DNA from: Escherichia coli
GTDB lineage: Bacteria; Pseudomonadota; Gammaproteobacteria; Enterobacterales; Enterobacteriaceae
Strand: one strand, 5' to 3'
DNA: 64,000 bases
Assembly (NCBI RefSeq): GCF_001677475.2
Contig: NZ_CP015229.1
Shown: in pieces, positions 39,695 to 42,240 of the stretch
How positions within the stretch are numbered: the stretch's first letter is position 1
Layout: each line of letters starts with the position of its first letter
Notes under the pieces: generated by a model
Seen by the model: the letters and a program-made list of their open reading frames with translations, nothing else
What the model was told of the DNA's origin: nothing
Database searches by the model: none
Position numbers and translations under genes: made by a program

Positions 39695-40405
39695 TTATTG
39701 GGTTGCAGTAACTGCTGTAGTCCAGGCCTGATTAAACGCCTGATGCTGTGCCGGTAATGGCGCAATCAGTTTGTTATATTCACTTGCCTGTTGTGACGTC
39801 GGGAACTGGATGCCATTTGCTACAAAGCTCACCTGAGTACCTTGCTGAGCAATGTAGTCTCCAACCATCACCAGTTGTTGCGTGAAAGTTTGTGCCGCCG
39901 GAATCAACGGTTGCAATGCATCAGCTGGTGTCGTTACCACTTTGGTGAATGCCTGATCAAAGACCGGTTTCAAATCATCGGTCTGTTTTAGCGCAGAGTG
40001 CGCAGCATCGGCCTGCAACTTCGCATTTTGCAGTTGTTGCGCCAGCACACCTAGCGAACCGTTCATTTCACGCAGCGGACCGCTTTGCGTAACGTAATCC
40101 TGCGGTACGCGAATTGCGTTAACGCTGTCTACGACCGGGCGCAGACCGGAATCCATCGCCTGATTCACCTGCTGAGAATAACCATACAGAATCGCGTAAT
40201 CAGAGACAAAAGGACCAAACTGTTTTTTCTGATCGGCAGTCAGGGTTGGTAGACGTTCGCCGCTACGCATCACTGTATTCTGCAGGAAGTCGATAAACGC
40301 TTTACGCTGATCGCCTTCTTTATCAAAACACCCACTCAGGCTAACTACCATTAATAACGCCGCAAGAGGCGCAAACCAGCGAGAGCAGGACTTTCCTGTC
40401 GCCAT
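39695..40405 (-). CDS. yiaF: lipoprotein YiaF
   Basis: 236 aa from ATG verified at 40405 (MATGKSCSRWFAPLAALLMVVSLSGC); lipobox present. Confidence 0.88.
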   Translation of the reverse strand: MATGKSCSRWFAPLAALLMVVSLSGCFDKEGDQRKAFIDFLQNTVMRSGERLPTLTADQKKQFGPFVSDYAILYGYSQQVNQAMDSGLRPVVDSVNAIRVPQDYVTQSGPLREMNGSLGVLAQQLQNAKLQADAAHSALKQTDDLKPVFDQAFTKVVTTPADALQPLIPAAQTFTQQLVMVGDYIAQQGTQVSFVANGIQFPTSQQASEYNKLIAPLPAQHQAFNQAWTTAVTATQ

Positions 40406-40838
40406 TTTCTTACTCCTTTCACCCAAAAAAAGCGCACAACGACACACGCGTGTCTGACGTGACAAGGATAGTCCAGGACAGGCTTGCAGGATACCCTTTC
40501 TACGTAATCTTCCTGGTAAAATCATGGAGAAAATGAAACAAGGTTAATTTGTTGTTTCATTGTTAAAAAATGATAGTGCCGTTGCTTTTTTTGTTGCCAG
40601 AGATTTACGCCTTCTCAGAACGTTAGATTTTCGAAATCTTTACAAACCGGGAGTGGTAAGAGATATATCGGCATTTATCAGATCGTTAGGTGGCTATAAG
40701 TCACGCTAAATGACTGGCTGAATCGAATCATAGCCAGAGCATGCCCTGACTTCACCCCGCTGTGTCTGCTTTTCCCGACTATTCTTAATGAGCTTCGATG
40801 CAATTCACGATCCCGCAGTGTGATTTGAGGAGTTTTCA

Positions 40839-41129
40839 ATGGAATATAAAGATCCAATGCATGAGCTGTTGAGCAGCCTGGAACAGATTGTTTTTAAAGA
40901 TGAAACGCAGAAAATTACCCTGACGCACAGAACAACGTCCTGTACCGAAATTGAGCAGTTACGAAAAGGGACAGGGTTAAAAATCGATGATTTCGCCCGG
41001 GTTTTGGGCGTATCAGTCGCCATGGTAAAGGAATGGGAATCCAGACGCGTGAAGCCTTCAAGTGCCGAACTAAAATTGATGCGTTTGATTCAAGCCAACC
41101 CGGCATTAAGTAAGCAGTTGATGGAATAG
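40839..41129 (+). CDS. yiaG: XRE-family HTH transcriptional regulator YiaG
   Basis: 96 aa with an HTH (DDFARVLGVSVAMVKEWE); HigA-antitoxin-like architecture with no adjacent toxin ORF. Confidence 0.88.
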   Translation: MEYKDPMHELLSSLEQIVFKDETQKITLTHRTTSCTEIEQLRKGTGLKIDDFARVLGVSVAMVKEWESRRVKPSSAELKLMRLIQANPALSKQLME

Positions 41130-41409
41130 ACTTTTATCCACTTTATTGCTGTTTACGGTCCTGATGACAGGACCGTTTTCCAACCGATTAATCATAAATA
41201 TGAAAAATAATTGTTGCATCACCCGCCAATGCGTGGCTTAATGCACATCAACGGTTTGACGTACAGACCATTAAAGCAGTGTAGTAAGGCAAGTCCCTTC
41301 AAGAGTTATCGTTGATACCCCTCGTAGTGCACATTCCTTTAACGCTTCAAAATCTGTAAAGCACGCCATATCGCCGAAAGGCACACTTAATTATTAAAGG
41401 TAATACACT
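41130..41409 (+). promoter_or_regulatory. cspA promoter and long 5' UTR
   Basis: 280-bp AT-rich non-coding region immediately upstream of cspA. From established knowledge this holds the cspA promoter and the long leader that acts as an RNA thermosensor; element positions not mapped here. Confidence 0.6.
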
Positions 41410-41622
41410 ATGTCCGGTAAAATGACTGGTATCGTAAAATGGTTCAACGCTGACAAAGGCTTCGGCTTCATCACTCCTGACGATGGCTCTAAAGACGTGT
41501 TCGTACACTTCTCTGCTATCCAGAACGATGGTTACAAATCTCTGGACGAAGGTCAGAAAGTGTCCTTCACCATCGAAAGCGGCGCTAAAGGCCCGGCAGC
41601 TGGTAACGTAACCAGCCTGTAA
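41410..41622 (+). CDS. cspA: major cold-shock protein CspA
   Basis: 70 aa [70 protein letters not shown], the CspA sequence. Confidence 0.98.
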
Positions 41623-41650
41623 TCTCTGCTTAAAAGCACAGAATCTAAGA

Positions 41651-41680
41651 TCCCTGCCATTTGGCGGGGATTTTTTTATT
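41651..41680 (+). terminator. cspA rho-independent terminator
   Basis: Hairpin TCCCTGCC..GGCGGGGA followed by TTTTTTT. Confidence 0.75.
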
Positions 41681-41809: not shown

Positions 41810-41962
41810 TTACTCTTTTAAATTGCAGGCTAAAAATGCCGCCAGCTCATAACTCCCCTGTTTAATATGCAATTCACACAGTGAATCTCTTATCATCCAG
41901 GTGAAAAATAAAAGCGTGAAACAAATCACTATTAAAGAAAGCAATCTATATTTCTGCGGCAT
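41810..41962 (-). CDS. hokA: Hok-family type I toxin (50 aa)
   Basis: ATG verified at 41962 (MPQKYRLLSLIVICFTLLFFTWMIRDSLCELHIKQGSYELAAFLACNLKE); a hairpin GGCGGGAAGTTATTCCCGCC follows the stop. Confidence 0.85.
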   Translation of the reverse strand: MPQKYRLLSLIVICFTLLFFTWMIRDSLCELHIKQGSYELAAFLACNLKE

Positions 41963-42240
41963 TCCCAGCCCCCTGTGTTGATTTCCAACGAGTAAGAGGC
42001 TAACCTTATGGTGTCTATGCATAGAGGGGCCTCACTTTGATTTATAGTCAGGTGGGGCTTTTCTCTGTCTGCCTTTCGGTGAATACCTGAGACAAACAGT
42101 CTCAAGCACCCGTGGCTATTCTAGCTTAATAAGTTTGTTTCTTCTCCTTGATATAATCCTAAAAAAATCTCATAAAATTAATATATGAGATAATCTTTAT
42201 TCAGCAGAAGATTATTAAAGGTTGCTGTATTATTTAGCGA
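41963..42240. promoter_or_regulatory. hokA upstream leader region, expected site of mok/sok elements
   Basis: 278 bp between hokA start and the glyS terminator, with a promoter-like CTTGATATAAT near 42148. By analogy with hok/sok loci an antisense Sok RNA and mok frame are expected here, but neither was positively identified. No IS sequence present. Confidence 0.45.

What the first reader, a model, noticed from the sequence alone, without database searches (positions are those of the whole stretch)
40839..41129. Orphan HigA-like XRE regulator yiaG next to cspA
YiaG has the size and HTH architecture of HigA-type antitoxins, but no toxin-sized ORF is adjacent on either side. It may be a solo regulator or the remnant of a toxin-antitoxin pair. 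A well-known gene, so low novelty.
Basis: inference. Interest (0 to 1): 0.2.

Follow-up and report, generated by a model that had tools for sequence, protein, structure and literature searches.

The report
Solo HigA-2-type regulator gene yiaG
This is the well-known E. coli gene yiaG, a small DNA-binding protein that descends from a toxin-antitoxin "antidote" family but has lived without any toxin partner since before the enteric bacteria diverged, so the finding is correct but ordinary.

Summary
The ORF at 40839-41129 (+) is E. coli yiaG (96 aa). It matches the NCBIfam equivalog at 190 bits and is present in 5419 of 5426 complete E. coli genomes.

The "HigA-like" reading holds, with one refinement: YiaG is a full-length homologue of the Vibrio cholerae HigA-2 / NadS (COG2944) antitoxins, not of canonical HigA. 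Profile-profile probability is 99.4% over residues 7-95, and the eight best structural matches are all HigA-2. The similarity includes the N-terminal toxin-neutralising helix as well as the HTH.

All eight non-orthologous relatives I inspected have a PF06296 RelE/HigB-2-type toxin gene directly upstream. yiaG has none. Pfam scans of the window's flanks and two toxin HMMs run on the flanks of the window and 54 orthologous loci found no remnant. The downstream flank is filled by the yiaG terminator and the cspA promoter and 5'UTR.

Orthologues down to 42% identity are always solo and always lie near yiaF. The N-terminal helix is the most conserved segment.

So this is an anciently domesticated, sigma-S-driven solo member of the family, not a decaying toxin-antitoxin locus. 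The yiaG/RelE/HigA2 link is already published (mBio 2025). Low novelty, low interest.

The parts
39695..40405 (-). yiaF (DUF3053 lipoprotein), divergent neighbour. It is the only gene whose linkage to yiaG is conserved across orthologues.
   Evidence: Pfam DUF3053 at 334 bits. RefSeq annotation. yiaF lies next to yiaG in most of the 54 loci and in the 42-51% identity orthologues.
40406..40838 (.). yiaF-yiaG intergenic region (433 bp). It contains no toxin remnant.
   Evidence: Six-frame Pfam scan gave no toxin family. PF06296-type toxin HMMs gave best E values of 2.2 and 2.6 across 660 flank translations, against 132-205 bits for the positive controls.
40777..40789 (+). Conserved sigma-S-type extended -10, GACTATTCTTAAT (hexamer TATTCT at 40780-40785, C at 40779). 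The transcription start is inferred near 40792.
   Evidence: Most positions are 90% or more conserved across 55 loci. Assignment as a sigma-S -10 is my inference from the known sigma-S consensus. yiaG is a standard sigma-S reporter (PMC5116933, PMC2229837).
40804..40823 (+). Conserved 5'UTR element TTCACGATCCCGCAGTGTGA, with outer arms TTCAC/GTGTGA and a variable centre. It is a candidate protein-binding site of unknown function.
   Evidence: Conservation. No extra copies in the window beyond chance. RNA fold no more stable than shuffles.
40827..40832 (+). Shine-Dalgarno sequence GAGGAG.
   Evidence: Read from the sequence. Nearly invariant across the loci.
40839..41129 (+). yiaG CDS, 96 aa.
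40839..40901 (+). Codons 1-21: an N-terminal amphipathic helix homologous to the toxin-neutralising helix of HigA-2/NadS. It is the most conserved segment of the protein.
   Evidence: pN 0.068 and mean column identity 0.93. AF2 helix at residues 6-20, low pLDDT. L10, S13 and E15 are conserved family-wide. It aligns to the HigA-2 N-terminus.
40902..40946 (+). Codons 22-36: a variable, probably disordered linker.
   Evidence: pN 0.348 and column identity 0.57. pLDDT below 50 for residues 19-35.
40947..41126 (+). Codons 37-96: the XRE helix-turn-helix and dimerisation domain of HigA-2 type.
   Evidence: Foldseek match to 5J9I, rmsd 1.4 A over 59 residues. Pfam HTH_3. A53, W66, R70 and P73 are invariant across the family.
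41155..41176 (+). Perfect 9-bp hairpin ACGGTCCTG-ATGA-CAGGACCGT followed by TTT. Probable yiaG terminator.
   Evidence: Inverted repeat I4. The terminator function is inferred.
41250..41677 (+). cspA mRNA (thermoregulator 5'UTR plus CDS). It occupies most of the downstream flank.
   Evidence: Rfam RF01766 at 501 bits, E 1e-142.

Best explanation
yiaG encodes a vertically inherited, monocistronic, solo member of the HigA-2/NadS (COG2944) antitoxin family.

Shown here:
- It keeps both modules of that family: an N-terminal amphipathic helix on a flexible linker and a C-terminal XRE helix-turn-helix domain.
- Its non-orthologous relatives are paired with an upstream PF06296 (HigB-2/RelE-type) toxin.
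- yiaG and all its orthologues lack the toxin and any trace of one.
- The gene sits next to yiaF across the Enterobacteriaceae and behind a conserved sigma-S-type promoter.

Inferred:
- An ancestral toxin-antitoxin pair lost its toxin before the family diversified, and the antitoxin was kept as a host stationary-phase and stress factor.
- YiaG most likely acts as an HTH dimer that binds a palindromic DNA site and represses transcription, as HigA-2 does.
- The strongly constrained N-terminal helix either assists DNA binding, as the HigA-2 disordered region does, or binds a still unknown protein partner.
For: - Identity and conservation.
- Full-length homology to NadS/HigA-2: hhalign probability 99.4%, E 8e-22, columns 7-95. 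PDB profile hit to 5J9I over residues 2-92, E 1.9e-6. The top 8 Foldseek hits are all HigA-2, with the C-terminal domain at rmsd 1.4 A.
- Relatives are toxin-linked: E. coli NRG857c loci, five plasmids and a metagenome locus, 8 of 8 in total.
- Orthologues are solo and yiaF-linked: 54 loci and the 42-51% identity orthologues.
- No toxin remnant.
- The downstream flank is accounted for by the terminator hairpin and the cspA mRNA.
- Selection by region: pN 0.068 (N-terminal helix), 0.348 (linker), 0.134 (HTH).
- Conserved sigma-S-type -10, and literature showing sigma-S dependence (PMC5116933, PMC2229837).
- HigA-2 mechanism for comparison: PMC5416850 and PMC11006873.
- Published relE-yiaG modules: PMC11980606.
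Against: - DNA binding by YiaG has never been shown. ChIP-exo of tagged YiaG gave no peaks under the conditions used (PMC6237786). I note that a sigma-S-dependent gene may simply have been poorly expressed under those conditions.
- Three of the four HigA-2 base-contacting residues differ in YiaG: R68, E71 and N72 correspond to A61, K64 and E65, and only R77/R70 is kept. The target site therefore cannot be predicted.
- YiaG scores below the curated NadS cutoff (37 against 60 bits).
- The AF2 model is only moderately confident (pLDDT 65).
- The ancestral toxin is inferred from relatives, not observed.
Confidence: 0.7

Rival explanations
1. Trans-acting orphan antitoxin (anti-addiction or immunity). 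YiaG uses its conserved N-terminal helix to neutralise PF06296 RelE/HigB-2-type toxins encoded elsewhere: on accessory chromosomal islets, plasmids or phages.
For: The N-terminal helix is the most constrained part of the protein although no cis toxin exists. It keeps the family-wide L10/S13/E15 motif and the hydrophobic periodicity of the toxin-binding helix. PF06296 toxin/NadS loci are common accessory elements in E. coli: 2637 and 672 of 5426 genomes. They also occur on enterobacterial plasmids. There is a phage family match, phrog_2104 at E 5e-15.
Against: Those toxins each carry their own cognate NadS, which is only 25-39% identical to YiaG. From general knowledge, cross-neutralisation at that distance is unusual. 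YiaG is core (99.9% of genomes) while the toxins are accessory. No experiment addresses this.
Confidence: 0.12
2. Protein-binding adaptor that no longer acts as a site-specific transcription factor. The HTH domain serves mainly for dimerisation, and the N-terminal helix binds a host protein in stationary phase.
For: ChIP-exo found no binding peaks (PMC6237786). Three of the four HigA-2 base-contact positions are changed, and position 64 varies among orthologues. The N-terminal helix is more conserved than the HTH.
Against: The HTH domain is itself well conserved (pN 0.134). A53, W66, R70 and P73 are invariant across the whole family, including the DNA-binding HigA-2. The ChIP conditions may not have expressed the protein.
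Confidence: 0.13
3. Recently decayed toxin-antitoxin locus. A HigB-like toxin next to yiaG was lost or degraded recently, and fragments remain in 40406-40838 or 41130-41409.
For: The upstream spacer of 433 bp would be long enough to hold a toxin of about 105 aa, and toxins of this family do lie upstream.
Against: No hit in any frame with Pfam or with two toxin HMMs, in the window or in 54 orthologous loci. The solo arrangement is conserved down to 42% identity. A genuine remnant of this family is easily detected in E. coli: the truncated nadS between nadR and ettA, at 90-95% DNA identity. The downstream flank is the cspA promoter and 5'UTR.
Confidence: 0.02

Closest known systems
E. coli YiaG (b3555; NCBIfam NF007481/PRK10072; COG2944)
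   Same: It is this gene: 190 bits over the full length, with the same synteny yiaF-yiaG-cspA.
   Different: Nothing. The window comes from a strain without the K-12 IS150 insertion near hokA; that IS150 comparison rests on my own knowledge of K-12.
Vibrio cholerae HigA-2 antitoxin (PDB 5J9I, 5JAA, 8A0X)
   Same: Same size and two-module architecture: an N-terminal neutralising helix, a linker, and a C-terminal XRE HTH with dimer helices. Best sequence and fold match in the PDB.
   Different: About 25% identity. No HigB-2 partner. Three of the four base-contact residues differ. Driven by a sigma-S promoter rather than a demonstrated autoregulated operator.
NadS family antitoxins / 'relE-yiaG' modules (NCBIfam NF041265; Gerdes, mBio 2025, PMC11980606)
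   Same: Full-length homologues (hhalign 99.4%) with a shared N-terminal motif and HTH.
   Different: YiaG scores 37 bits against a cutoff of 60. NadS genes follow a PF06296 toxin gene and are accessory or mobile. yiaG is core, solo and yiaF-linked.
MqsA antitoxin (PF15731, TIGR03830; PDB 3GN5/3FMY)
   Same: The C-terminal HTH domain is similar, with sub-threshold hits of 26 and 43 bits and a Foldseek match to 3FMY at rmsd 1.9 A.
   Different: YiaG lacks the N-terminal zinc-ribbon CxxC pairs (it has one Cys, C35). It has no mqsR partner and is below both cutoffs.
Canonical HigA (Rts1 / E. coli HigA; TIGR02607)
   Same: An XRE-type HTH antitoxin in a toxin-first operon family.
   Different: No hit to the HigA family model at E<=1. 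The toxin family and the neutralisation mode are both different.

Membership tests
YiaG equivalog (NCBIfam NF007481) | Full-length match above the curated cutoff (110 bits) | tested here: met
   190.3 bits, residues 1-96 of 96.
HigA-2 / NadS antitoxin family | C-terminal XRE HTH domain of HigA-2 fold | tested here: met
   Foldseek ranks 1-8 are all HigA-2. 5J9I_E aligns at rmsd 1.4 A over 59 residues, TM 0.79. PDB profile E 1.9e-6.
HigA-2 / NadS antitoxin family | N-terminal toxin-neutralising helix followed by a flexible linker | tested here: met
   hhalign covers residues 7-95. L10, S13 and E15 are conserved across YiaG, NadS and HigA-2. AF2 gives a helix at 6-20 and a low-confidence linker at 19-35. 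This is sequence and architecture only; binding is not testable here.
HigA-2 / NadS antitoxin family | Score above the curated NadS model cutoff (60 bits) | tested here: not met
   37.1 bits, E 2.9e-9. YiaG is a separate subfamily.
HigA-2 / NadS antitoxin family (as a functional type II TA module) | Adjacent upstream PF06296 (HigB-2/RelE-type) toxin gene in the same operon | tested here: not met
   No ORF and no remnant in the window or in 54 orthologous loci. It is present in 8 of 8 non-orthologous relatives.
HigA-2 / NadS antitoxin family | Autoregulation through a palindromic operator overlapping its own promoter | tested here: inconclusive
   A conserved TTCAC-N-GTGTGA element at 40804-40823 lies between the -10 and the SD. 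It is imperfect, absent at that spacing in Klebsiella/Raoultella, and has no binding data. ChIP-exo was negative (PMC6237786).
HigA-2 / NadS antitoxin family | Neutralises a toxin in vivo or in vitro | not testable with these tools
   Needs co-expression or binding experiments.
Canonical HigA (TIGR02607) | Match to the HigA family model | tested here: not met
   No hit at E<=1 in the NCBIfam scan.
MqsA (TIGR03830 / PF15731) | N-terminal zinc-ribbon (two CxxC pairs) plus C-terminal HTH, above cutoff | tested here: not met
   43.3 bits against 61.8 and 26 bits against 30, matching the HTH part only. The sequence has a single Cys.
XRE/Cro-C1 HTH (Pfam HTH_3 PF01381) | HTH_3 domain above the gathering threshold | tested here: met
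   26.7 bits against a cutoff of 23, residues 38-80.

The most novel reading that the evidence does not exclude
The toxin-neutralising helix of this domesticated antitoxin is the most strongly constrained part of the protein. The reason would be that YiaG still captures RelE/HigB-2-type toxins (from plasmids, phages or accessory islets) or a host protein in trans. That would make a core, sigma-S-induced gene a stationary-phase anti-addiction or immunity factor across the Enterobacteriaceae.
Probability: 0.12. Interest if true: 0.5.

Novelty: already known. Interest (0 to 1): 0.15.

Why it matters
The finding matters little beyond tidy annotation. yiaG is widely used as a sigma-S reporter, yet its own function is unknown. 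Knowing that it is a long-domesticated HigA-2/NadS-type antitoxin suggests concrete experiments for an uncharacterised core regulator. Its N-terminal toxin-binding-type helix is under stronger constraint than its HTH, which points to a search for partners of that helix and to stationary-phase ChIP. The locus is also a clean example of an antitoxin surviving for a long time without its toxin. It contrasts with the truncated nadS remnant found elsewhere in most E. coli genomes.

Tried and rejected
- **Toxin remnants.** I scanned the X-joined translations of 40406-40838 (all six frames) and 41130-41409 (both strands) against Pfam. I also ran two custom PF06296-type toxin HMMs (116 close toxins; 7 diverse toxins) with filters off against 660 flank translations from the window and 54 loci, and ran tblastn of two E. 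coli toxins against the flanks and the whole window. Nothing scored above noise, while the positive controls scored 132-205 bits.
- **Antisense ORFs.** The mechanical ORFs antisense to yiaG and to cspA (72, 63 and 140 aa) gave no family hits.
- **PADLOC.** Only generic HTH hits.
- **5'UTR element as an RNA structure.** The fold is no more stable than shuffled sequence, z = +0.76.
- **5'UTR element as a repeated operator.** No extra copies in the window beyond chance.
- **Consensus sigma-70 promoter scan.** It found only one antisense site, fewer than the shuffles gave.
- **Related-loci scan.** The search for related loci with the divergent alignment A2 failed for lack of a conserved stretch, so A1 was used instead.
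- **Representative-library search.** The hit list was dominated by multi-HTH repeat proteins and gave few new full-length relatives.
- **Deeper AF2 alignment.** A 60-sequence alignment did not raise model confidence (pLDDT 64.6 against 63.9).

Full report
**Observation**

The window around the finding is the E. coli yiaD - ghrB - yiaF(-) - yiaG - cspA - hokA/sokA(-) - glyS(-) region.
- The ORF at 40839-41129 (+) encodes 96 aa and follows a GAGGAG Shine-Dalgarno at 40827-40832.
- It scores 190.3 bits against the YiaG equivalog NF007481 (cutoff 110) and passes Pfam HTH_3.
- The 1.8-kb segment is found in 5419 of 5426 complete E. coli genomes with the same annotation.

The gene is real, and the coordinates are exact. 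One correction: RefSeq starts yiaF at 40405, so the upstream spacer is 40406-40838 (433 bp), not 40526-40838.

**Is it HigA-like beyond the generic HTH?**

Yes, but the family needs to be named precisely.
- A single-sequence search hits V. cholerae HigA-2 (5J9I/5JAA) only over the HTH part (E 5e-3).
- There are sub-threshold matches to MqsA (PF15731 26 bits; TIGR03830 43 bits) and NadS (NF041265 37 bits, cutoff 60).
- There is no hit to the canonical HigA model.

With profiles the relationship becomes full-length.
- A YiaG-family profile aligns residues 2-92 with HigA-2 residues 2-99 (E 1.9e-6).
- hhalign of 18 YiaG orthologues against 29 NadS/HigA-2 sequences gives probability 99.4%, E 8e-22, over columns 7-95.
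- An AF2 model of moderate confidence (pLDDT 65) shows a helix at 6-20, an unconfident linker at 19-35, and a five-helix HTH domain at 37-95.
- Its eight best Foldseek matches in the PDB are all HigA-2 chains. The C-terminal domain superposes at 1.4 A over 59 residues.

This is the HigA-2 architecture described by Hadzi et al. In HigA-2 a disordered N-terminal segment folds into a helix (residues 3-22) plus a strand on HigB-2, followed by the HTH and dimerisation domain (PMC5416850). Across 60 family members L10, A53, W66, R70 and P73 are invariant, and S13, E15, R42, G57, S59, E67 and P88 are nearly so. The N-terminal helix motif is therefore shared, not only the HTH.

**Are relatives toxin-linked?**

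All eight non-orthologous relatives I inspected have a RelE/ParE-superfamily toxin of 103-110 aa directly upstream on the same strand. Four of these toxins have Pfam data, and all four hit PF06296.
- The two chromosomal loci of E. coli NRG857c.
- Five plasmid loci from E. coli, Klebsiella, Yersinia, Citrobacter and Pantoea.
- A metagenomic locus whose antitoxin is 34-37% identical to YiaG.

This agrees with the published description of bicistronic relE-yiaG modules and of the HigA2-like HTH of YiaG homologues (PMC11980606), and with the AIEC TA survey (PMC7232551).

**Is there a toxin or a remnant at yiaG?**

No.
- The flanks hold only short mechanical ORFs.
- Pfam scans of the translated flanks with stops masked (upstream in six frames, downstream on both strands) gave no toxin family.
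- Two custom HMMs built from PF06296-type toxins, run with all filters off on 660 flank translations from the window and 54 orthologous loci, gave best E values of 2.2 and 2.6. The same models scored 132-205 bits on true loci.
- The downstream flank is fully accounted for. A perfect 9-bp hairpin at 41155-41176 is the probable yiaG terminator. The cspA transcript starts at 41250 (Rfam RF01766, 501 bits).

**How old is the solo state?**

A scan of one genome per species returned 54 loci from about 20 genera of Enterobacteriaceae.
- In nearly all of them yiaF is the divergent upstream neighbour.
- In Klebsiella, Raoultella, Buttiauxella and others an MFS transporter gene is inserted between yiaF and yiaG.
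- cspA is downstream only in some genera. In others glyS follows directly.
- None has a toxin-sized ORF upstream.

The most divergent orthologues in the representative library (P0131, P0133, P0143, P0152; 42-49% identity) are likewise yiaF-linked and toxin-free. The split is sharp: a yiaF-linked solo clade against toxin-linked NadS/HigA-2 relatives.

For contrast, a genuine remnant of this family is easy to see in E. coli. About 4300 genomes keep only a roughly 140-bp truncated nadS between nadR and ettA, at about 80-95% DNA identity. The full toxin-nadS pair sits there in 672 genomes.

**Selection and regulation**

Over 55 orthologues the N-terminal 21 codons are the most constrained, and the linker is nearly free.

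| Segment | Codons | pN | pN/pS | Mean column identity |
|---|---|---|---|---|
| N-terminal helix | 1-21 | 0.068 | 0.12 | 0.93 |
| Linker | 22-36 | 0.348 | 0.48 | 0.57 |
| HTH domain | 37-96 | 0.134 | 0.18 | 0.85 |

Synonymous sites are saturated, so these ratios are rough. A conserved amphipathic helix with no hydrophobic core of its own implies a binding function: DNA-assisting, as for the HigA-2 disordered region (PMC11006873), or a protein partner. This is inference.

Upstream footprinting shows three conserved features.
- GACTATTCTTAAT at 40777-40789. I read this as a sigma-S-type extended -10.
- A conserved element TTCACGATCCCGCAGTGTGA at 40804-40823.
- The Shine-Dalgarno sequence.

The promoter reading fits the literature. 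yiaG-yfp is a standard sigma-S reporter, induced in stationary phase and by acid (PMC5116933, PMC2229837), and yiaG co-clusters in expression with gadE, bolA and cspD (PMC6055005).

The 5'UTR element remains unexplained. It is not a stable RNA structure, it is not repeated in the window, and it is not kept at the same spacing in Klebsiella.

**Mechanism and its limits**

The best reading is a domesticated HigA-2/NadS-type protein acting as a sigma-S-induced HTH dimer. Several points count against certainty.
- ChIP-exo found no YiaG peaks (PMC6237786).
- Three of the four HigA-2 base-contact residues are replaced in YiaG.
- No partner is known.

Two alternatives cannot be excluded: a trans-acting antitoxin role, and an adaptor role with no site-specific DNA binding. 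The recently decayed TA locus reading is effectively excluded.

**Verdict**

The gene and its antitoxin kinship are already in the literature, so novelty is nil and interest is low.

Noticed in passing
window 40804-40823: A conserved 20-nt element TTCACGATCCCGCAGTGTGA lies in the yiaG 5'UTR. Its outer arms are conserved and its centre is variable across Enterobacteriaceae. It is not a stable RNA hairpin and is not repeated in the window. It could be an operator for YiaG or for another factor.
   Followed up: partly
L063:1531-1698 and L003:1912-2530 (E. coli nadR-ettA intergenic region, outside the window): Most E. coli genomes (about 4300 of 5426) keep only a truncated ~55-aa nadS at this site. 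672 genomes carry the full PF06296 toxin plus nadS pair there. This is a clear toxin-loss remnant of the same antitoxin family. The K-12 nadS ORF was recently reported as expressed (PMC12350097).
   Followed up: partly
L020, L024, L027, L052, L056, L072 (about 1350-2780 in locus coordinates): In Klebsiella, Raoultella, Buttiauxella, Pseudocitrobacter and others an MFS transporter gene of about 455 aa is inserted between yiaF and yiaG on the yiaG strand. The yiaG -10 region and further upstream motifs (TTTACAA, TCA..GTTAG) remain conserved.
   Followed up: partly
window 41810-42111 (-): The hokA type I toxin gene (41810-41962) and the sok antisense RNA (Rfam RF01794, 120 bits, 41960-42111) lie just downstream of cspA and look intact. 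A longer 70-aa ORF extends the hokA frame upstream. Several related genera carry one to three hok copies at this position.
   Followed up: no
window 40839-40901: Synonymous divergence is lower in the first 21 codons of yiaG (pS 0.55) than in the rest of the gene (0.72-0.76). This hints at a nucleotide-level constraint at the 5' end in addition to the protein constraint.
   Followed up: no
proteins P0122, P0135, P0139-P0142 (representative library): Many top hits to the YiaG profile are long proteins (up to 4162 aa) with 5-15 tandem YiaG-like HTH stretches. Their origin and nature were not examined.
   Followed up: no
L008, L012-L014, L016, L034, L043, L046, L054: The position of cspA relative to yiaG is lineage-specific. 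In Enterobacter, Pseudescherichia, Cedecea, Phytobacter, Leclercia and Lelliottia it lies between ghrB and yiaF on the other side.
   Followed up: yes
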